Part shown: positions 19,054 to 36,300 of the stretch, in pieces
Position numbering within the stretch: position 1 is the first letter of the stretch
How the letters are laid out: every line of letters begins with the position of its first letter
NCBI GenBank assembly: GCA_963718615.1
Contig: OY970368.1
Coordinates: forward strand, 1,888,001 to 1,952,000
Reading direction: 5' to 3'
Origin: an uncultured cyanobacterium
Lineage (GTDB): Bacteria; Cyanobacteriota; Cyanobacteriia; PCC-9006; JAAUQQ01
DNA: 64,000 bases
Translations under genes and position numbers: made by a program
Notes under the pieces: model-generated
Databases searched by the model: none
Told to the model about the DNA's origin: nothing
What the model saw: only the letters and a program-made list of their open reading frames with translations

Positions 19054-19305
19054 GGGTTCACTCTGGTTGTACCAAGTTCATCGCTCAGAAGCAGGTACCC
19101 CTAGGGGGCATTTTGCGAGTAGCAGGTCAAGAAACGATCACTCGCAGGGATGATTATGTCCGATGGGTGACGTTTGTTATGAGACAAAATGTAACAGCGT
19201 ATCTACTGAATATAGGTTTCCTCGGTATGATAAGAGTCGTGTTTGAGGCGAATCTGCTCGCTGACCTGTTCTAGAAGCTTTTTAGGCCGGTTTTCCATGA
19301 TGGAC

Positions 19306-20609: not shown

Positions 20610-20629
20610 GGTTATTAATATTGCCAGCA

Positions 20630-20715
20630 GCATAACAACCCTGCTGCACCGGAACGAACTTAAGTTATCGATAGGAGTCAGAGTTTTTTGCGTCCGGTGA
20701 GCAGGAACGTTAGCT
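20630..20715 (+). other. attC site 1
   Basis: GCATAAC-aaccct-GCTGCACCGGA...TCCGGTGAGC-aggaac-GTTAGCT, an imperfect inverted repeat with an extrahelical base. Confidence 0.9.
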
Positions 20716-29023: not shown

Positions 29024-30073
29024 ATGAATAAAAGTTACGTTATATGGAACAACAAAGGAGGTGTTGGTAAGAGCACCATTACTTTCCATATTGCATCTAT
29101 GTACGCCGAGAAACATAGCGATCGGAATGTAGTGGTTATAGATATGTGTCCACAAGCAAACTCGTCAATGATGCTGATGGGGGGCGGGACTGGCGCGGAA
29201 TCTCGTCTACAAGAGCTAATTGTTGGGGATGTCCCTAAAACTGTTGTGGGTTACTTGACAGACAGCGTACTGAAAAATGACACCACAGATGTGAATAAAT
29301 ATCTGCTTCAATTGCAGGAAAATAATCCAAGGCTGCCGCCAAATCTCTTTCTTATGTCTGGTGACGGAAATCTGGAGCTAATTGCTCCCTTGTTGGCAGA
29401 AAGAGCTGATGCAACACCATTATCCAGCACGGATTCGCCTTGGGTTGAGATACACTCAATCATTAAAAGATTTACAGAGCGTACTATATTCGATAAGCCG
29501 ACAACATTTTTTATCGATACCAACCCCAGCTTCTCAATCTACACGCAAATTGCAATTTTGTCAGGGCAAAAGTTATTGGTTCCTATCAATGCTGATGACT
29601 CGTCAATTTACGCGATATCAGGATTGTTCAATTTAATATGGGGCACAGAGAAAACGCATCCAGTCTACGGAAAGTATACTTTTGCCGCTAAAGTTGATAC
29701 TTTCGGAATGGAAAGACCGAAAATTGCACTTTTACTAGGCAATAGGTTTACTCAGAAGATAGGCGCAGCGCAGGCTTTCAAGGCACTGTCAAATGAAGCA
29801 GTGCGGAAAATGTTTGAGGAGTATGAAAATAACAAATCTCGTTTTGTTGATGGAGAGCAACATAGCTACTCTCGAAGTGAATTTGAAGATGTCTACAGTT
29901 GTGAATTGAGAGATTTTAATAGTGCTGGCGTTGTAGCAGCAAATCAAGGGTTGCCACTGAGCCAAATGCTGGAACAGCGCCGTTACATGGTGTATGGTGA
30001 GGAAATTCAGGTTTCTCAAGAGCAAAGGAATAAGTGTCATGAAGTAATTGAGACGCTTGTTGGAAGGCTATGA
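29024..30073 (+). CDS. Orphan ParA/Soj-family ATPase (cassette 3)
   Basis: Deviant Walker A NNKGGVGKST, plus IDMCPQAN and FIDTNPS. Confidence 0.9.
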   Translation: MNKSYVIWNNKGGVGKSTITFHIASMYAEKHSDRNVVVIDMCPQANSSMMLMGGGTGAESRLQELIVGDVPKTVVGYLTDSVLKNDTTDVNKYLLQLQENNPRLPPNLFLMSGDGNLELIAPLLAERADATPLSSTDSPWVEIHSIIKRFTERTIFDKPTTFFIDTNPSFSIYTQIAILSGQKLLVPINADDSSIYAISGLFNLIWGTEKTHPVYGKYTFAAKVDTFGMERPKIALLLGNRFTQKIGAAQAFKALSNEAVRKMFEEYENNKSRFVDGEQHSYSRSEFEDVYSCELRDFNSAGVVAANQGLPLSQMLEQRRYMVYGEEIQVSQEQRNKCHEVIETLVGRL

Positions 30074-30340
30074 GCATCTGCAAAGGTTGCCCCAGAAGAT
30101 AATTCTGGACATCTACTGAGGCTAAGTCTGTCTAACATAGGCCCTGAGGCGGACGGAGTCAATGGCGAACACTAAATATTCTGCTCTGATTGAAAAAGGA
30201 CGGTTATTTAATCAGGACAAATCGACCTGATATTGAGCTTTGAATTGCTCAGATAATCTCATTATCAGATTATTTGTATTTGATGATGTGTTGCTAATTG
30301 ATGTGCTTGAAATCAACTAAAAAACTGCAATCAAGAGATG

Positions 30341-31606
30341 CTATTCCGCCAGAAGTGCAATCAACGGTGACTTCTTCCGTCTCAGGGCAGCTAAATACTT
30401 TTCCTCATCATAGGGTTTACCATCTTGCCAACAACGCCAGAGAATCCGACCCCATTTATAGGCCAAAGCCCGAATTGCTTTCGGATGACTTTTGCCTACA
30501 GCCCGTTGTTGTTTGTAAAAGGCTTGCGACCAGGCGGAATGCCGTCGCGCTTGATCCACCCATTCGACAAAGGTTTGTCGCAAGAAAATCGGACAAGACC
30601 AACGCCAATGAACCCAACGTTTCTTGCCACTTTCCTCTTTCACGGGCGCAATGCCGATATAACTCATGAAGGCTTGGGCCGAATCAAACCTTGTGCGGTC
30701 TTCACCAAAAGCCGCGAGGAGTCGAGGAGCGAGATGTGGGCCTGCTCCTGGCAAGGTTCGAAATAATACCGCATCAGGCAGGGATTCAAACAATTGTTCG
30801 ATACTCTGCTCAAATGCAGCCAGTTGTTGCACAATGACTTTGAGTAATGCAATCAAGGCAACCGTCAGAGCTTGGGCGGGTCGGATGATCGCCTCATCTT
30901 GGGTCAAGGGTGGGCCAGCTTCATGGATTTGCTGAATCCGTCGCTGGATGGCCGATTTACGAACCACTTTATGGTTGCGAAAGAACTGTGTCAGTTGGAT
31001 ATCAGTCGTGGCTTGTGCCGCTTGTACATCGGGGTATTGTTCCAGGAATTCACAGAAGACGAGAGTGTCCTTATCCTCAAACCAATCAAGCACTTGTGGA
31101 AAGTAGGATTTAAGTGAGGCTATAATGCGATTGGTCAGCCGCACTTTCTCCCCCACCAGCATCCGCCGCGACTCAACCCATTGCCGTAATTGACGATGTT
31201 TTGGACAGCCCGCCGTCCAAATGTCGAGTTTGTCACCATGCTTTTGTAGCAGTTCCACAATCAACTTGGCGTCAATGGGATCAGACTTTGCCCGTGACGG
31301 TTGAAAGGCTTTGCGGTAGTTGGCTACGGTGCGGGGATTGATCGGCACTAGAACCAAGTTGTCGTATTGGCAGAGGGCATAGAGCAACGGTCCACGTTTT
31401 TGTTCTAGGCCAACGAGGATTTTTCTCTGGCCATAGCGCTGTCGCAGTTGATTCACCCAATCGGCGATCGCCTGTGGGGTTGCTTGAATGATGCTATGTT
31501 CCCAAACCTGAGAGGTGGGTTCATGCAGGGCAATGTCATGTTTTCGGTCAGCCCAGTCGATGCCAATGTAGGCAGCGTAAGGGGTATTGGCAAGGTTAAG
31601 TTTCAT
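30341..31606 (-). CDS. IS110-family DEDD transposase/bridge recombinase
   Basis: YIGIDWAD, GLE, AKSDPID and GIAPVKEESG (catalytic Ser) motifs. Start placed at the ATG at 31606. Confidence 0.92.
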   Translation of the reverse strand: MKLNLANTPYAAYIGIDWADRKHDIALHEPTSQVWEHSIIQATPQAIADWVNQLRQRYGQRKILVGLEQKRGPLLYALCQYDNLVLVPINPRTVANYRKAFQPSRAKSDPIDAKLIVELLQKHGDKLDIWTAGCPKHRQLRQWVESRRMLVGEKVRLTNRIIASLKSYFPQVLDWFEDKDTLVFCEFLEQYPDVQAAQATTDIQLTQFFRNHKVVRKSAIQRRIQQIHEAGPPLTQDEAIIRPAQALTVALIALLKVIVQQLAAFEQSIEQLFESLPDAVLFRTLPGAGPHLAPRLLAAFGEDRTRFDSAQAFMSYIGIAPVKEESGKKRWVHWRWSCPIFLRQTFVEWVDQARRHSAWSQAFYKQQRAVGKSHPKAIRALAYKWGRILWRCWQDGKPYDEEKYLAALRRKKSPLIALLAE

Positions 31607-31656
31607 CGTGCTAGATTGAGGATAGTTTTTGCTTGGGGGAAAAGCTAACGCCAAGT

Positions 31657-31938
31657 TCAGGGGCGAAAAGATTATGGAAGAGATGACACTCATCAATCCC
31701 TGAGAGTTCGTTACTAGTGAAGTTGGACGAGGTGGGGCGGCGATGCCATATGTTAGTAGTCATCGACTGACTCTCGTTGGATAGTCGTCCGCTCCACCTG
31801 GTAGAATTTCCCCACTTTCTTACTTTAAGTATTTCTTCAAGAGCAAGCGAACCCAGGAGGAGGAGGAGCGATGCGATATGTTAGTAGACATGCTTGCTGT
31901 CGCGCGATGCATGGTCGTCTCCTCGTCTTTTCAGGTTC
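31657..31938 (-). ncRNA. Putative IS110 bridge RNA (three hairpins)
   Basis: Three similar stem/bulge/stem units upstream of the transposase. Bulges are complementary to the target junction (twice) and to the donor junction (once). Folded by eye. Confidence 0.6.
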
Positions 31939-32107
31939 TCGTCTCCCCATAAACCCGGCTGGAGCGGACTGAAGGGAGATCTCGGTGGGGATGCAAAGGT
32001 TACTTGCAGCTGCTCAACCGGAACGTTAGCGATAGTTGCTGTAGACTTTAACGGACTCAGAACAAGAAACTAAATAGATATTCCGATAATTAGGAGACAA
32101 AATAATT

Positions 32108-32851
32108 ATGGAATTTAACCCAAACAACAATGTTGTTAAACTTTGCCTTCAAGGTATGGGCATGGAAGAAAAAGGCAAACCTGAAGAAGCAAGTAAACTC
32201 TTTCTTCAAGCCTGGAACGAAGCGACATACGATTTTGAAAAATTTATTTCAGCTCATTATGTAGCCCGACATCAAAAAACTGTTTCTGACAAATTAAAAT
32301 GGCTCGAAACGGCTTTGCAGTTTGCATTAAAAATAAATGACGACACTGTCAAGAGTGCTTTCCCTTCTCTATATTCAAACATTGCCAAATGCTATGAGAA
32401 ATTAAGCGACCCTGATAAGGCAAAAAAGAATTATGAATTAGCAACTTCGTTTAAGGATAAACCTTCTGACAAAGGTCCTTTTTATCATGGAACGAAAGCA
32501 GATTTGCAGGTTAGCGATTTGCTGACAGCAGGGAGTAATTCTAACTATAAATCTGAACTCAAAATGAATCACATTTACTTTACAGCCCTTGTTAATGGAG
32601 CGGGACTAGCTGCTGCCTTAGCAAAAGGCAATGGACGTGAACGTGTTTATATCGTTGAACCGACAGGGGGATTTGAAAATGACCCGAATGTTACAGACAA
32701 AAAATTTCCGGGCAATCCGGCACGCTCATATCGCTCCCAAGCACCATTAAAGATCGTTGGCGAAGTAACAGATTGGGTGAGACAAACACCTGAGGAACTC
32801 CAAAAATGGCGTGAAAAATTGGCCAACAATAAAGGAGAAATTATTAATTAA
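32108..32851 (+). CDS. arr: Rifampin ADP-ribosyltransferase (Arr) with an N-terminal TPR-like domain (cassette 4)
   Basis: PFYHGTKADL, HIYFTA, VYIVEPTG.FENDPNVTDKKFPGNP.RSYRS motifs. Confidence 0.9.
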   Translation: MEFNPNNNVVKLCLQGMGMEEKGKPEEASKLFLQAWNEATYDFEKFISAHYVARHQKTVSDKLKWLETALQFALKINDDTVKSAFPSLYSNIAKCYEKLSDPDKAKKNYELATSFKDKPSDKGPFYHGTKADLQVSDLLTAGSNSNYKSELKMNHIYFTALVNGAGLAAALAKGNGRERVYIVEPTGGFENDPNVTDKKFPGNPARSYRSQAPLKIVGEVTDWVRQTPEELQKWREKLANNKGEIIN

Positions 32852-32890
32852 TTTCTCAGATGCCCATACCATCCTCATAAACCAACGAAC

Positions 32891-33052
32891 CGCTAACATA
32901 TGTTAGTAGACATGCTTGCTGTCGCGCGATGCATGGTCGTCTCCTCGTCTTTTCAGGTTCTCGTCTCCCCATAAAGCGCGATGCACCGGAACTTTGAAGG
33001 CTGCTATGTTGCCGAGTGAGTGGTCTGCGTCCGGCGATCGCAAACGTTAGAC
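32891..33052 (+). other. attC site 4, interrupted by a 76-bp IS110 remnant
   Basis: CGCTAAC, then the insert, then AAGCGCGATGCACCGGA...TCCGGCGATCGCAAAC-GTTAGAC. Confidence 0.85.
32898..32973 (-). mobile_element. 76-bp remnant of the IS110 end
   Basis: Identical to 31876-31951 and inserted at the same position (after TAAC) in attC4. Confidence 0.88.
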
Positions 33053-33109
33053 AGATTCCTTTTCATAAGGATACGATTCTAGTAACACACTTTTTATGGC
33101 ACAAAGCTT

Positions 33110-33262
33110 ATGAACAAGATGAATCTTGGTCTCGGTATTGGCTTAGGCGTAGGTATCGGGACTGCCATAGGTGTAGCAACGGACAACATCGGTATTGGAC
33201 TTGGTATAGGGATTGCAATCGGTGTTGCGATTGGTCTTCAAGGCAGTAACGGTGACCAATAA
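33110..33262 (+). CDS. 50-aa glycine-zipper membrane peptide (cassette 5; not in the ORF track)
   Basis: MNKMNLGLGIGLGVGIGTAIGVATDNIGIGLGIGIAIGVAIGLQGSNGDQ*, located right after attC4. Confidence 0.75.
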   Translation: MNKMNLGLGIGLGVGIGTAIGVATDNIGIGLGIGIAIGVAIGLQGSNGDQ

Positions 33263-33327
33263 AGTTTGTTGCTAACCCGTCAAACTTGGGTAGATATGAT
33301 TCTGTTAGCTTGTTGTGGATTTTGTTT

Positions 33328-36300
33328 TTAGTCCGCCCTCCCCCGCTGCCCACAAACCTGCGCCGGCTCAAACCACTGCGCCAGCCCCCGCTGAACCTGA
33401 TCCGCAGCCTGCTTCGGTGTTAGTTTACCCTGCAAGACCCCTAGGGCACTATCCCCCATCAGCTCCAGTCCATTCGGCAACCCCTCCTGCAACGCCTCAG
33501 CCGTCCAGCGAATATCGGTTTGATCGCTTTGGGTGAATTTTAGAAACGCTTGCGCTGCTGGATCCTGAGGCAAATCGGTCATTCGTCGCAACGGGAAAAA
33601 ACCAGGGATAGCCGACGCAAGTTGCTGAACCACCGATTCCTGACTTAGCCATTGCAGCAGGGCCTGGGCTGCTTCTGGGTGTTCCGAGGCCGCGTTGACG
33701 CCGATGGCAAAATCTGGCTGAAACGTCACCACTGTGGGCTGTCCCTGGGGCGGCGGCACGGCAAACACGCTCCAAGCAAAGTCGGGTTTAGCCTCTTCAA
33801 TCTGGGGAATTTGCCAGGAACCGCTGATCATCATCGCGGCTTTGCCGTCATACAACAACTGACGGCTGTCCTGTTCGGTGACGATGGTGTTGTCGTCCGG
33901 CAAGAAGGGGCGTAAATCCCCAAGGGCTTTGAACGTGGCGATCGCCCTCGGGTCATTAAAACAGCGATCGCCCGACAAATAGGCCAACCGCCCTGCCCGT
34001 CCGCCGATAAAATTGGGCGCTAGGTTAAACAACAGGGTTTCTGCCACCGAGAGACTGTTTTGGGTGCTGTTGGCTAGGGGAATATAGCCCGCAGCTTTGA
34101 GGGTTTGCGCTGTTGCTAGAAATTCCTCCCAGGTTTGAGGCAGGGCCAAGTTCAGGGATTTGAACAAATTGGCGTTGTAATAAACCCCGTGGGACACCGC
34201 CATCATGGGCAGGGCGTAGAGTTCGCCTGCATCATTTTGCCAGGGTTTGAGGGCCTCCGGGTCGTAGGCTGGGGTGATTTCCTCAATTTTGGGAAAATCG
34301 TTGAGCGATCGCAGCGCCCCCTGCTGGATGAGCGTCTGCCCCGCCGAAAAGGGTGGCACAAAGAACAAATCCGGGGCCTTGCCCTCCGCCAGTTGATCTG
34401 CCAAGACCGTTTGATAATCCATTCCCCGCGTCGGCGCGAACTGGACCTCTAGCTTGGGATTCTCGGCCATAAATTTTGCCAAAAGCTGGTCAAACTCGGC
34501 TTGATCTTCGGTTCGCCAGGAGCCCAACGTTATCGTAGTCCGGCTTGCATCCATGGCCGCGAGATCCCGCGCTTGGAGCGTGGGGGTTTGGGTGGGTTGA
34601 GGGGCGGCGTTGAGTTGGCGATCGCTCCACAGCGGATAGACCCCATAGATCACCGTAAAAATCGCCACAAACACGCCCAACGCCACAGGATAAAACCGTT
34701 TTCCCAGGCGATCGATCTGCAATAAAAGCTGATCATTCTGGCGCTTGGCGGCGACGTTGGTGCCAATGGAAACAAACAGGGCAAAGAGGCAAAGGACATA
34801 CATGGCGTAAAACATGTATTCGATCGCAACCAAATACCCCACCACGGGCAAATCATTGGACAGCCGCACATGGAAAAATGATGTCGCCAGCAAAATGCTC
34901 AGCCCGCCCCCGGCCTTGGGCGCAATGCCGTCCGCCGGAATAAACAAAATCATGTAGGCGGCAACCAGGAGCAAAAACACCGGTAGCAGATTTTTCAGGA
35001 CAAAACCAACGGCGTCTCGCTGGAGATAGACCGCCACGTTGAACCGAGAATATTGAATTCGGTCATCAAATTTGGCATCCAGAAACTGGGGATCGCCCAG
35101 GGTCGAATCGTCCCGCAGCACGTCCTGGAAAAACTTGGCGCTTTTGATCCGCCAGGTGGGCAAGCCATCGAGGACCTTGGACTGTTCCAGTTTGCTGAGG
35201 ATGCTGCGGGTGCTGTTGCTGCGCATCCCGACGACATCATCGACGTAGAGCAAATCCTCGGCCTTCAGGCTTTTGTGGCGAAAGCTGACAATCAGCGTCT
35301 GTTGGTCAAAGGGATAATCCCGAAAATCAAACTCTCCCCGGAACCGACCCTTCACCCGATAGGCTCGGTAATGCATCGGTCCCAGCTCATCGGGTGTGTC
35401 GCTGGCATTCATCAGCTCTTGGGTTTCCAGCGGTTCGGCAAGATTCGTAAACTCAATGTCGTCGGCCTTAAACTCGCCGCGATAGCGAAACCAAAGATAA
35501 AAATCCACCAGGTACGAGGAATCCTTCGGGTCTAGGGCATCGATCGCATTGATATCAATCCCCGTATAAACCACCTGGACAGGCTTCATGTAGCGACTAT
35601 TCACCGGCAGCAGTTCACCCTTGACCAGGGCTGTTTTCAAATCGGCCACCTGTCGCAAATCCGTCACCGCTTGCAGTTGGAGTGCCGCCGGAATGAGCTG
35701 TCGGTCCTGGAAAATTCCCATGGGAACCGCCCGTAAGCTTTCGCCCTGGCCATCAAAATACAGATCCCCCTGGAGTCCTTTGACCGCGTTGCTGAGATTG
35801 TTGATTTGGGCGATCGCCTCCCGCAGTTTTTCCCGCCGCTGCTGCACCGATCCCCGGTTCTGCGCCAATTGAGCCCGAGCCATGGCTTCCGTCACCACAT
35901 GGGCCGCGTCGTAATAGGTGGCCGCCGCCCAAGTGGGCTGTTGACCATAGCGATCGACAAAATCCACCTGAAAATCCTGGGCCTCGCCACTGGCCACATC
36001 AAAAATGATGGGAGCCACCGCATAGAGCCCATCGGAGAAATAGCCCGGTTCCGCCTGCTCTTCTGGATAACTGGCAAAGAGCTCACTTAGGCTCTCTTTC
36101 CCCAGGGAATCTGGCCCCAAAAGCAGCGGCGTCAGCTCATTCCGTTTGAGGTCCACCACCAACGGCACCGCCACCTGATCCGGCGTTGCGATTAACAAGG
36201 CCCCCAAATCTTTGCCCTGGAGCTTATCCTGTAGCAATTCCTCAATCATCTGGGCCTGGACCTGGGCTTGGGCCTCCGGATTCTCCGCAGGCAGCACCCA

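What the first reader, a model, noticed from the sequence alone, without database searches (positions are those of the whole stretch)
31657..31938. Putative three-loop bridge RNA: two attC-targeting loops and one donor loop
Seen: the ~345-bp region upstream of the IS110 transposase contains three hairpins of the same design: outer stem, large one-sided bulge starting GC(C/G)A on the + strand, inner stem. They lie at 31849-31938, 31730-31799 and 31657-31703. The first two have different stems but share ATATGTTAGTAG in the bulge. As RNA this contains CUAACAUA, complementary to the IS-end/attC junction TATGTTAG. The third carries ATTATGG (31671-31677), which matches the circularised donor junction CCT-ATTATGG-GG. 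Established: IS110 bridge RNAs normally have one target-binding and one donor-binding loop, each with two guides. Inference: this is a duplicated target loop with apparently one-sided guides reading only the conserved R'' box (CTAAC). That would suit a target whose other side is variable or hairpin-structured. Folding was by eye, and I cannot tell whether this architecture is already catalogued.
Basis: partly seen in the sequence, partly recalled or inferred. Interest (0 to 1): 0.8.

Follow-up and report, generated by a model that had tools for sequence, protein, structure and literature searches.

The report
Bridge RNA with two target loops
An IS110-type mobile element sitting in an integron recombination site appears to encode a guide ("bridge") RNA with two target-reading loops instead of one, each apparently aimed at a different class of site, which would be a natural way to widen an RNA-guided recombinase's target range.

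Summary
An IS110-family element (30139-31950, minus strand) lies inside an attC-like site.

Relatives change the interpretation. The region folds as a bridge RNA. A covarying long-range helix encloses a canonical target-binding loop (31730-31799) and a donor-binding loop (31664-31710). An extra, second target-binding loop (31863-31924) lies 5' of it.

The loops are not one-sided. Each has a 10-nt 5' segment that is variable within an otherwise about 90% conserved module. This segment differs between the two loops in all 22 distinct elements. It matches the variable attC arm next to the insertion: mean best match 7.17/10 against 6.24 in permutations (0 of 5000 as high). The better match was loop 1 in 18 and loop 2 in 14 of 32 two-loop insertions.

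The two-loop design marks one cyanobacterial clade; its sister clade has one loop.

No RNA data exist. I found no two-target-loop bridge RNA in the paper library. My verdict is a new variant of a known kind, with confidence about 0.65.

The parts
30139..31950 (-). IS110-family insertion sequence (about 1.81 kb, counting one copy of the shared TATG/AT core)
   Evidence: The ends were fixed by aligning both ends with 5 diverged copies in the same genome (about 72% identity). All are flanked by ..TAAC-AT on one side and AT-AA.. on the other. The same termini occur in relatives from other genomes.
30344..31606 (-). Transposase (bridge recombinase) CDS, 421 aa
   Evidence: PF01548 plus PF02371. NF033542 'IS110 family RNA-guided transposase' at 192.9 bits, cut-off 140.
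31636..31939 (-). Predicted bridge RNA. The 5' end is inferred from a junction promoter; the 3' end is the 3' strand of the closing helix.
   Evidence: Consensus fold of 24 left ends: 89% of cells paired against 83.7% in shuffles, and 24 pairs with double changes against 11.5 (0 of 500 shuffles as high); slid controls gave 40-52%. G-U pairs (for example 9 of 24 at one pair) fit the minus-strand RNA only. No RNA reads exist.
31863..31924 (-). Loop 1: the extra, 5' target-binding loop. Outer stem 31919-31924 with 31863-31868, and 31915-31917 with 31869-31871. Inner hairpin 31887-31901.
   Evidence: Module identity among 24 elements is 0.83, or 0.91 outside the variable 6-mer and hairpin loop.
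31902..31911 (-). Left-target guide of loop 1 (TGCATCGCGC in the element's sense)
   Evidence: Matches 10/10 the attC arm beside the solo fragment (32976-32985, opposite strand). Also matches 10/10 the flank of the same IS in another strain's contig (run X2, loose end at 31953).
31876..31884 (-). Right-target guide, core complement and 2-nt handshake position of loop 1
   Evidence: Invariant in 24 of 24 aligned elements. Complementary to T-AT-GTTAG of the targets.
31800..31813 (-). 5' strand of closing helix P1 (pairs with 31636-31652)
   Evidence: All 10 of 10 P1 pairs show changes on both sides across the 24 elements (helix 3).
31730..31799 (-). Loop 2: the canonical target-binding loop. Inner hairpin 31759-31771. 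Right-target guide, core and handshake at 31748-31756.
   Evidence: 9 of 12 outer-stem pairs covary (helix 4). Fold z -4.1.
31772..31781 (-). Left-target guide of loop 2 (TCCAACGAGA in the element's sense)
   Evidence: Matches 8/10 the attC arm flanking the second solo fragment of this IS type, at G000 about 4836440. Differs from the loop 1 guide.
31664..31710 (-). Donor-binding loop. Base stem 31707-31710 with 31664-31667. Left-donor guide 31698-31704. Inner hairpin 31682-31694. Right-donor guide plus handshake 31672-31677.
   Evidence: The left-donor guide CTCAGGG has the same sense as the right end (30139-30149, opposite strand). CCATAA is the complement of the TT-AT-GG left-end junction. 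Both are invariant in 24 of 24 elements, so this is complementarity only, not covariation.
30132..30138 (+). attC R'' box (CTAAC) plus core AT: the right target half
31951..32031 (+). The rest of the interrupted attC (L'' arm, L' arm, and R' box GTTAG at 32025-32029)
   Evidence: Read. An integron integrase and its remnants are present in the genome.
30157..30162 (-). Candidate -35 hexamer (TTGACT) in the right end. In the circle it lies 17 nt from T-AT-GGG at the left-end tip.
   Evidence: Read from the sequence; this is inference. No sigma-70-like site lies upstream of the loops on the minus strand in the integrated state.
32898..32972 (-). Solo left-end fragment, identical to 31876-31950, inside the next attC (R'' 32893-32897, R' 33046-33050)
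   Evidence: D1 repeat, 100% over 78 nt. A second copy, 95% identical with the same inner edge, lies at G000 4836444-4836526 in a different attC.

Best explanation
The left end of this IS110-type element encodes a three-loop bridge RNA.

Architecture. A closing helix (31800-31813 with 31636-31652) encloses the usual pair of loops. These are a target-binding loop (loop 2, 31730-31799) and a donor-binding loop (31664-31710). The donor loop's 5' guide copies the element's right end. Its 3' guide is complementary to the left-end tip, the core and two target bases. A complete second target-binding loop (loop 1, 31863-31924) has been added 5' of this unit.

Guides. Both target loops carry the same 3' guide, complementary to T-AT-GTTAG, which is the attC R'' box plus the core. 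Their 10-nt 5' guides differ. Each has the same sense as, and so pairs with the bottom strand of, the variable L'' arm of an attC at positions about -4 to -13 from the core.

Inferred mechanism. In IS621 the target and donor loops of one synaptic complex can come from different RNA molecules. By analogy, either target loop here, loaded on a recombinase dimer, could synapse with the donor loop bound to the circular junction. The element could then insert into two attC classes that share R'' but differ in L''.

What is shown: the anatomy, conservation, covariation of the helices, and a statistical match between guide and flank for both loops. What is inferred: transcription of the RNA, binding by the recombinase, and use of both loops in recombination.
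For: 1. Architecture. In the alignment of 24 two-loop left ends, my structure pairs 89% of cells against 83.7% in shuffles. It has 24 pairs with compensatory changes against 11.5 expected (0 of 500 shuffles as high). Slid controls gave 40-52%. P1 covaries at 10 of 10 pairs and the loop 2 stem at 9 of 12.

2. Guide signature. The six variable nt in each 5' segment have pairwise identity 0.52 and 0.56. They sit inside modules that are 0.91 and 0.89 identical. The 3' guide is invariant.

3. Guide-flank match. For 36 non-redundant insertions, the mean best match was 7.17/10 against 6.24 +/- 0.15 when guide sets were permuted among elements (0 of 5000 as high). For two-loop elements alone it was 7.31 against 6.42 (0 of 10000).

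4. Both loops are used. The best-matching loop was loop 1 in 18 and loop 2 in 14 of 32 insertions. For flanks of the TGCAT class (n=12), the own loop 1 scored 7.67 and the own loop 2 scored 5.58. For the other flanks (n=20), loop 2 scored 6.3 and loop 1 scored 5.6. Within-class shuffles reached the observed value in 253 and 180 of 10000.

5. This IS type itself. The loop 1 guide matches 10/10 the attC arm at the solo fragment. It also matches 10/10 the flank of the full IS in run X2. The loop 2 guide matches 8/10 the attC arm at the second solo.

6. The two guides differ at 2-6 of 10 positions in 22 of 22 distinct elements.

7. Phylogeny. Two-loop elements form one clade (support 96/94) whose sister clade has one loop. 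There is one nested loss, in L017 (33 rows). Loop 1 and loop 2 keep distinct inner-stem signatures: A-U in 22 of 24 and U-A in 22 of 24. This points to an old duplication kept by selection.

8. The nearest named relative, ISEsa2 (42.5% aa identity), has a plain 5' hairpin, one target loop and a donor loop with the same stems upstream of its gene.

9. Context. An integron integrase scoring 443.8 bits (cut-off 265) and four degraded copies lie next to IS copies in the genome.
Against: There is no RNA evidence. The only RNA run found had nothing laid on the stretch, and run X2 is contigs of unknown library type.

The window's own insertion fits poorly: its flank matches loop 2 at 6/10 and loop 1 at 5/10. 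In all, 8 of 32 two-loop insertions score 6/10 or less.

Scoring needed register shifts of -2 to +2. The matched block stops about 3 nt short of the core, unlike IS621, where the left guide runs into the core (PMC11208158, passages).

The elements are related, so the permutations overstate independence. The within-class tests are only about p 0.02.

The loop 1 outer stem is conserved but shows no compensatory change (0 of 9 pairs). RNAalifold instead pairs its 3' strand with the left-end tip.

Donor ends and donor guides are invariant, so the donor loop rests on complementarity alone.

Empty sites matching either guide are not enriched in host genomes: 0 of 5 genomes and 2 of 5 genomes for two exact patterns, and 9 hits against 8 for the reversed control.

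The two solos were scored with the loops of the window's IS, which is an assumption.
Confidence: 0.65

Rival explanations
1. The target loop is duplicated but its guides are one-sided. Only the conserved R'' box is read, and the variable or structured side of attC is ignored.
For: The 3' guide is identical in both loops and invariant in 24 of 24 elements. The window's own insertion flank matches neither 5' segment well, at 6/10 and 5/10. Half-match recombination is documented for IS621 (10.64898/2026.08.31.748434, abstract).
Against: The 5' sides carry 13-15 unpaired nt. Their six variable positions are the only fast-evolving part of the module. They match the flanks better than permuted guides do (0 of 5000), including two 10/10 matches. 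If only R'' were read, keeping two loops with the same guide would have no obvious use.
Confidence: 0.1
2. Loop 1 is not a second specificity module for insertion. It may be a structural or regulatory 5' domain, for example one that aids recombinase loading, RNA stability or titration. Alternatively it may be a neutral duplicate. On this view its resemblance to attC arms reflects the few attC classes available.
For: The loop 1 outer stem shows no covariation. Single-loop relatives, and ISEsa2, have a plain hairpin at that position. The within-class permutation support is modest (253 of 10000).
Against: Loop 1 keeps every invariant feature of a target loop across a clade with up to about a third protein divergence (module identity 0.91 outside the variable parts). 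This argues against neutrality. For TGCAT-class flanks it is loop 1, not loop 2, that matches (7.67 against 5.58, n=12). A rare 7-nt variant is shared by the loop 1 guide and the flank in L147.
Confidence: 0.12
3. Loop 1 works as a separate target-loop-only RNA (seekRNA-like). It would serve a target-loop x target-loop 'direct transfer' reaction from the resident junction to a new site, rather than simply widening the target range.
For: Abundant target-loop-only RNA, and transfer reactions driven by target loops alone, are reported for CazIS110-1 and IS621 (10.1101/2025.10.25.684509, section 8 read). Loop 1 lies outside the closing helix and could be released on its own. The solo fragments end exactly at the loop 1 guide.
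Against: There are no RNA data here. This reading does not explain why the two 5' guides always differ (22 of 22) as well as dual specificity does. It is compatible with the best explanation rather than exclusive of it.
Confidence: 0.08
4. The hairpins act as DNA, for example as sub-terminal recombinase binding sites or as attC-like folded single strands, and not as RNA.
For: The plus-strand versions fold at least as well (z -4.2 and -4.9).
Against: The covarying helices contain many G-U pairs in the element's sense: 9 of 24, 5 of 24 and 4 of 24 at single pairs. On the other strand these would be C-A mismatches. The layout copies that of experimentally established bridge RNAs.
Confidence: 0.03

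Closest known systems
IS621 / IS110-group bridge RNA (Durrant 2024, PMC11208160; Hiraizumi 2024, PMC11208158; passages read)
   Same: It is encoded in the left end, upstream of a DEDD/RuvC-like plus Tnp recombinase. The loops are internal loops. Their 5' guide has the sense of the left half-site, and their 3' guide is complementary to the right half-site plus the core, followed by handshake positions. There is one donor loop. A promoter is probably rebuilt at the circle junction.
   Different: There are two target loops instead of one. The 5' guides stop about 3 nt before the core. The shared junction sequence is TATG, so the core may be palindromic, whereas in IS621 it is CT. A long-range helix encloses the target and donor loops. 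There is no Rfam match.
ISEsa2-family IS110 elements of enterobacterial plasmids (annotation in NZ_CP016526.1)
   Same: It is the nearest named transposase (42.5% identity over 97% of the protein). Its upstream non-coding region has the same CGAA/UUCG-type base stems and the same left-donor guide motif, which is matched near its right end.
   Different: By eye it has a plain 5' hairpin and a single target loop. It has a different target guide and is not in an attC. I did not map its ends.
IS1111-attC group (ISKpn4, ISPst6, ISPa25, ISPa21) and their seekRNA (Siddiquee 2024, PMC11187229; passages read)
   Same: These are DEDD-transposase elements that insert at one fixed position and orientation at one end of integron attC sites, guided by an element-encoded RNA.
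   Different: Their guide RNA lies downstream of the gene, with the strand matches in the reverse order, and they have sub-terminal inverted repeats. Here the RNA is upstream (344 nt against about 200 nt downstream) and of the IS110 type. The two groups therefore appear to have arrived at attC targeting independently. Tetu & Holmes 2008 and Post & Hall 2009 were not available to me.
Target-loop-only RNA of CazIS110-1 (Sun 2025 preprint, 10.1101/2025.10.25.684509; section 8 read)
   Same: A stand-alone target loop acting beside the full bridge RNA, and target-loop x target-loop reactions.
   Different: There it is a truncated product of the single loop and has the same specificity. Here there is a second, separately encoded loop with a different left guide.

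Membership tests
IS110-family bridge RNA | Encoded in a non-coding end next to a DEDD_Tnp_IS110 plus Transposase_20 recombinase | tested here: met
   The left end is 344 nt, directly upstream of the ATG at 31606.
IS110-family bridge RNA | A target loop whose 5' guide has the sense of the left target and whose 3' guide is complementary to the core plus the right target | tested here: met
   The 3' guide is complementary to T-AT-GTTAG at every mapped insertion. The 5' guide matches the flank above permutation level. The register is offset by about 3 nt from the core.
IS110-family bridge RNA | A donor loop whose guides match the right-end and left-end tips | tested here: met
   There is a 7-nt same-sense match to the right end and a 6-nt complement of the left-end junction. 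No covariation is possible because all of these positions are invariant.
IS110-family bridge RNA | Guides covary with target and donor across orthologues | tested here: inconclusive
   For the target side this is met statistically, but with only 36 insertions and related elements. The donor side cannot be tested because it is invariant.
IS110-family bridge RNA | The same core in target and donor; no target-site duplication | tested here: met
   TATG is shared by both junctions. The flanks differ from copy to copy.
IS110-family bridge RNA | The RNA is made and is bound by the recombinase | not testable with these tools
   Only one RNA run was found and nothing from it was laid on the stretch.
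IS110-family bridge RNA | Match to a curated RNA family model | tested here: not met
   There were 0 Rfam 15 matches at E <= 1 in 29500-34000. I do not know whether Rfam holds a bridge RNA model.
IS1111-attC group | The long non-coding region and the guide RNA lie downstream of the transposase gene | tested here: not met
   The guide modules lie upstream.
IS1111-attC group | Insertion at a fixed position and orientation in attC | tested here: met
   All mapped copies sit between ..TAAC-AT and AA.. of attC-like sites. In this respect it works like that group but is not a member.
Integron attC site (the target) | R''/R' inverted core sites, an imperfect L''/L' palindrome, a position at cassette ends, and association with intI | tested here: inconclusive
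   The core sites and arms were read by eye. intI scores over its cut-off, and four remnants lie near IS copies. No attC covariance model was run.

The most novel reading that the evidence does not exclude
This would be a natural tri-specific bridge RNA: two independently evolving target-binding loops and one donor loop on a single transcript. It would let one recombinase insert into two attC classes. Because the core is probably palindromic (TA/AT), two loop-bound right half-sites could also recombine head to head. One of those half-sites can be the DNA that encodes the guide itself. That reaction would explain the solo left-end fragments, which end exactly at the guide.
Probability: 0.5. Interest if true: 0.8.

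Novelty: new variant of a known kind. Interest (0 to 1): 0.68.

Why it matters
Bridge RNAs are described as bispecific, with one target loop and one donor loop, and engineering follows that plan. A conserved natural design with two differently programmed target loops would show three things. The scaffold tolerates an extra loop. Target range can be widened without duplicating the element. Multi-target bridge RNAs are biologically workable.

It also adds an IS110-type lineage, with the RNA upstream of the gene, to the attC-targeting elements. Those known so far are IS1111-type. Because insertion splits the recombination site, this lineage may immobilise cassettes in cyanobacterial integrons.

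The solo fragments point to a testable cost of RNA guidance: the DNA that encodes a guide is itself a half-site for that guide.

Tried and rejected
Rfam scan of 29500-34000 at E <= 1: no hit.

Sequencing runs: 2 were found. The RNA run X1 had nothing laid on the stretch. X2 is contigs only, so it says nothing about transcription.

Earlier findings of this scan: none near the site.

Metagenome pattern scan: 114 stretches matched. I parsed only 8 loci as real elements (L106, L107, L124, L147, L159, L194, L195, L205). Two of these duplicated others, and the rest looked like chance matches.

More copies in 10 related genomes: only 4 new partial or diverged copies (L217, L219, L220, L227). I read these by eye and did not add them to the statistics.

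Empty cognate targets in host genomes: 0 of 5 genomes for one exact pattern and 2 of 5 for the other. A looser pattern gave 9 hits against 8 for its reversed control. This is uninformative.

Empty sites in the window's own genome: 21 sites of the TT-AT-GTTA(G/T) type, of which only one was attC-like.

Origin of the solo fragment by integron integrase: rejected, because the joint is not at the G/TT of an R' box.

Origin of the extra loop by an IS inserting next to a solo fragment: rejected, because no second left-end tip follows loop 1.

I read the coordinates from the ruler instead.

Papers: Tetu & Holmes 2008 is not held. The bridge RNA catalogues in the supplements of Durrant 2024 and of the 2026 language-model preprint may therefore already contain this subfamily.

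Full report
WHAT IS THERE

The window belongs to a complete 6.1-Mb genome. Its relatives at this locus are all cyanobacterial.

A 421-aa IS110-family transposase is encoded on the minus strand at 30344-31606. It matches PF01548 and PF02371 and NF033542 'IS110 family RNA-guided transposase' at 192.9 bits, with a cut-off of 140.

I fixed the ends of the element by comparison with five diverged copies (about 72% identity) elsewhere in the same genome. On the plus strand every copy is preceded by ..TAAC-AT. Every copy ends in ..CCCC-AT, followed by AA and then copy-specific sequence. The element is therefore 30139-31950.

The four bases TATG are shared by both junctions. The crossover dinucleotide (TA, AT or TG) cannot be resolved.

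The flanks have the look of an integron attC site. They begin with an R'' box (CTAAC, 30132-30136), followed by an imperfect palindrome, and end in AAC-GTTAG (32025-29).

The genome has an integron integrase scoring above the curated cut-off (TIGR02249, 443.8 bits against 265). It also has four degraded copies. Most of these lie within a few kb of copies of this IS family. One fragment lies at window 19122-19277. I did not run an attC model, so 'attC' rests on reading the sequence plus this context.

CHECK OF THE OBSERVATION

They are paralogous.

The third hairpin as drawn (31657-31703) is no better than shuffled sequence (z -0.6). Its outer stem is not found in relatives.

The joined ends read ..GGGCCT-AT-GGGG.., so ATTATGG matches only 5 nt of them. 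It matches 6 of 7 nt of the junction between attC and the left end.

The third copy of the 12-mer belongs to a solo left-end fragment, described below.

RELATIVES AND ANATOMY

A scan of one genome per species found 192 relatives of the transposase, of which 80 loci were kept.

Most cyanobacterial relatives carry two copies of one conserved module, about 267 and 145 nt upstream of the start codon. A few carry a single copy.

The module, read in the element's sense, has these parts:
- an outer stem with a bulged A;
- a 5' internal-loop strand made of GACGAC, then YAT, then a 10-nt segment;
- a short inner hairpin in which one pair differs between the two loops (A-U in loop 1, U-A in loop 2);
- a 3' strand holding the invariant complement of T-AT-GTTAG plus two more bases.

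I aligned 24 two-loop left ends. RNAalifold and a hand-refined structure give three units:
- loop 1;
- a long-range helix, P1, that encloses loop 2 and a third internal-loop structure;
- that third structure, the donor loop.

Overall, 89% of cells are paired against 83.7% in column shuffles. There are 24 pairs with changes on both sides against 11.5 expected (0 of 500 shuffles as high). Sliding the partners by 1-3 columns drops pairing to 40-52%.

P1 covaries at 10 of 10 pairs and the loop 2 stem at 9 of 12. The loop 1 stem is conserved without covariation. RNAalifold alternatively pairs its 3' strand with the very tip of the left end. That tip should lie upstream of the transcription start if the promoter is the one rebuilt at the circle junction. 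I read this promoter as a -35 TTGACT in the right end (30157-30162), 17 nt from T-AT-GGG. This is my reading, not a test.

Frequent G-U pairs fit the minus-strand RNA only.

The third structure (31664-31710) has an invariant CGAA/UUCG base. Its 5' strand contains CTCAGGG, which has the same sense as the right end, 3 nt from the core. Its 3' strand contains CCATAA. That is the complement of two left-end bases, the core, and the two T's of the target. This is the arrangement expected of a right-donor guide followed by handshake bases, as described for IS621 (PMC11208158, passages).

All of these positions are invariant. The donor loop therefore rests on complementarity, not covariation.

ARE THE TARGET LOOPS ONE-SIDED?

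No. Within modules that are about 0.9 identical between elements, the six variable bases of the 5' segment have pairwise identity 0.52 (loop 1) and 0.56 (loop 2). That is as low as in the linkers.

I parsed module groups in all sequences held and found 59 groups. I dropped 20 that lacked a recognisable left-end tip or 16 nt of flank; many of these were chance regex hits. I also dropped 3 duplicates. This left 36 insertions: 32 two-loop and 4 one-loop. The two solo fragments were scored with the loops of the window's IS.

I compared the 10-nt segment with flank positions -13 to -4, allowing shifts of up to 2. The mean best identity is 7.17/10. Permuting guide sets among elements gives 6.24 +/- 0.15 (0 of 5000 as high).

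The better-matching loop is loop 1 in 18 and loop 2 in 14 of the 32 two-loop insertions.

I then split the flanks by a criterion independent of the element.
- TGCAT-class flanks (n=12) match the element's own loop 1 at 7.67 and its loop 2 at 5.58.
- The other flanks (n=20) match loop 2 at 6.3 and loop 1 at 5.6.
- Within-class shuffles reach the observed values in 253 and 180 of 10000.
- Best-of-two over all two-loop insertions is 7.31 against 6.42 (0 of 10000).

The two guides of an element differ at 2-6 of 10 positions in all 22 distinct pairs.

For the window's own IS type:
- The loop 1 guide (31902-31911) is identical over 10 nt to the attC arm beside the solo fragment (32976-32985).
- It is also identical over 10 nt to the flank of the full-length IS in another strain's contig (run X2, loose end at 31953).
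- The loop 2 guide (31772-31781) matches 8/10 the attC arm at a second solo fragment (G000 about 4836440).

Against this, the window's own insertion matches only 6/10 and 5/10. Eight of the 32 two-loop insertions score 6 or less. The elements are not phylogenetically independent. The matched block ends about 3 nt from the core, unlike in IS621.

EVOLUTION

In a maximum-likelihood tree of 33 transposases, the two-loop elements form one clade (support 96/94). It contains one nested single-loop element (L017, a probable loss) and one row without upstream sequence (L030). The sister clade (L033-L035) has one loop preceded by a plain hairpin.

The nearest named relative, ISEsa2 on enterobacterial plasmids (42.5% identity), likewise shows a hairpin, one target loop and a donor loop with the same base stems.

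Loop 1 is therefore an added target loop that has been retained across a clade spanning several cyanobacterial families.

MECHANISM PROPOSED

Both loops read the conserved R'' box and core with the same 3' guide. Each reads a different L'' arm with its own 5' guide. Either loop, bound by a recombinase dimer, could synapse with the donor loop bound to the circle junction. In IS621 the two loops of a complex may come from different RNA molecules (PMC11208158, figure legend passage). This part is inference.

A related possibility is that loop 1, which lies outside P1, acts as a stand-alone target-loop RNA. Such a species is reported for CazIS110-1 (10.1101/2025.10.25.684509, section 8).

THE SOLO FRAGMENTS

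The stretch 32898-32972 is identical to 31876-31950. A 95% identical copy lies in another attC. Both begin exactly at the loop 1 guide, which makes a perfect 14-bp palindrome with the R'' box.

The joint is what a crossover would give between two TA dinucleotides. One is at the right-end junction. The other is inside the guide-coding DNA, which is by construction a perfect right half-site for the guide. With a palindromic core, two right half-sites could recombine head to head.

This is a hypothesis. Mobilisation of one 75-bp fragment in trans is not excluded.

NOVELTY

Full-text searches found no occurrence of 'two target-binding loops' or 'second target-binding loop'. They also found no relevant hit for six phrasings built on the abbreviation TBL.

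The sections I read of the 2026 language-model survey of bridge RNAs describe two-loop RNAs only.

The known attC-targeting elements (ISKpn4, ISPst6, ISPa25) are IS1111-type, with the RNA downstream of the gene (PMC11187229, passages).

Figures and supplements were not visible to me, so prior cataloguing of this subfamily cannot be excluded.

VERDICT

This is a real feature and a bridge RNA by anatomy. It has a conserved second target loop whose separate specificity is supported statistically and by two exact matches, but not yet by any RNA or recombination data.

Noticed in passing
window 32898-32972; G000:C1:4836444-4836526: Two solo left-end fragments of this IS type lie in two different attC sites. 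Both end exactly at the loop 1 guide and form a 14-bp palindrome with the R'' box. Possible origins are a head-to-head crossover at a palindromic TA core between the right-end junction and the guide-coding DNA, or a mobilised mini-element.
   Followed up: partly
window 19122-19277 (minus strand); G000 948656-949594, 3859666-3860405, 4712672-4713822, 4646232-4646402: There is one integron integrase gene above the curated cut-off and four degraded copies, one of them in this window. Copies of this IS family lie within a few kb of most of them. The window looks like a decayed integron or an attC cluster.
   Followed up: partly
window 32108-32851 (+): The cassette ORF between the two interrupted attC sites has an N-terminal TPR region fused to a rifampin ADP-ribosyltransferase domain (PF12120 1e-46; NF033144 at 157.9 bits against a cut-off of 130).
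   Followed up: no
window 33110-33262 (+): A 50-aa ORF made of glycine/isoleucine-rich repeats (direct repeat family D2) lies directly after the second attC. It has no Pfam match.
   Followed up: no
window 30157-30162 with 31946-31951: The right end carries TTGACT exactly 17 nt from T-AT-GGG of the left-end tip once the ends are joined. This is a candidate junction promoter of the kind known for IS621 and ISEc11. The same spacing is seen in the diverged in-genome copies.
   Followed up: partly
window 31787-31801 and 31955-31969: The 5' strand of the loop 2 outer stem is 87% complementary over 15 nt to the attC arm flanking this very insertion (inverted repeat I8). I did not see this in other elements, so it may be chance.
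   Followed up: no
L017:1286-1500: This element is nested in the two-loop clade (78% aa identity) but has a single hybrid-looking loop and a 214-nt left end. It sits in an attC arm of the class normally matched by the missing loop 1, which suggests that a loop was lost after insertion.
   Followed up: partly
L219 and L220 (G001:C56:138807-138989 and G001:C32:2752120-2752302): A further two-loop subfamily has a much shorter spacer between the left-end tip and loop 1. It was not included in the statistics.
   Followed up: no
G000 427149, 1908706 (window about 20620-20715), 3858293, 4517911: Unoccupied attC-like sites in this genome mostly read ..TAAC-AA.. and lack the AT that the guide requires. 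Cognate empty targets are therefore nearly absent from the host genome.
   Followed up: partly
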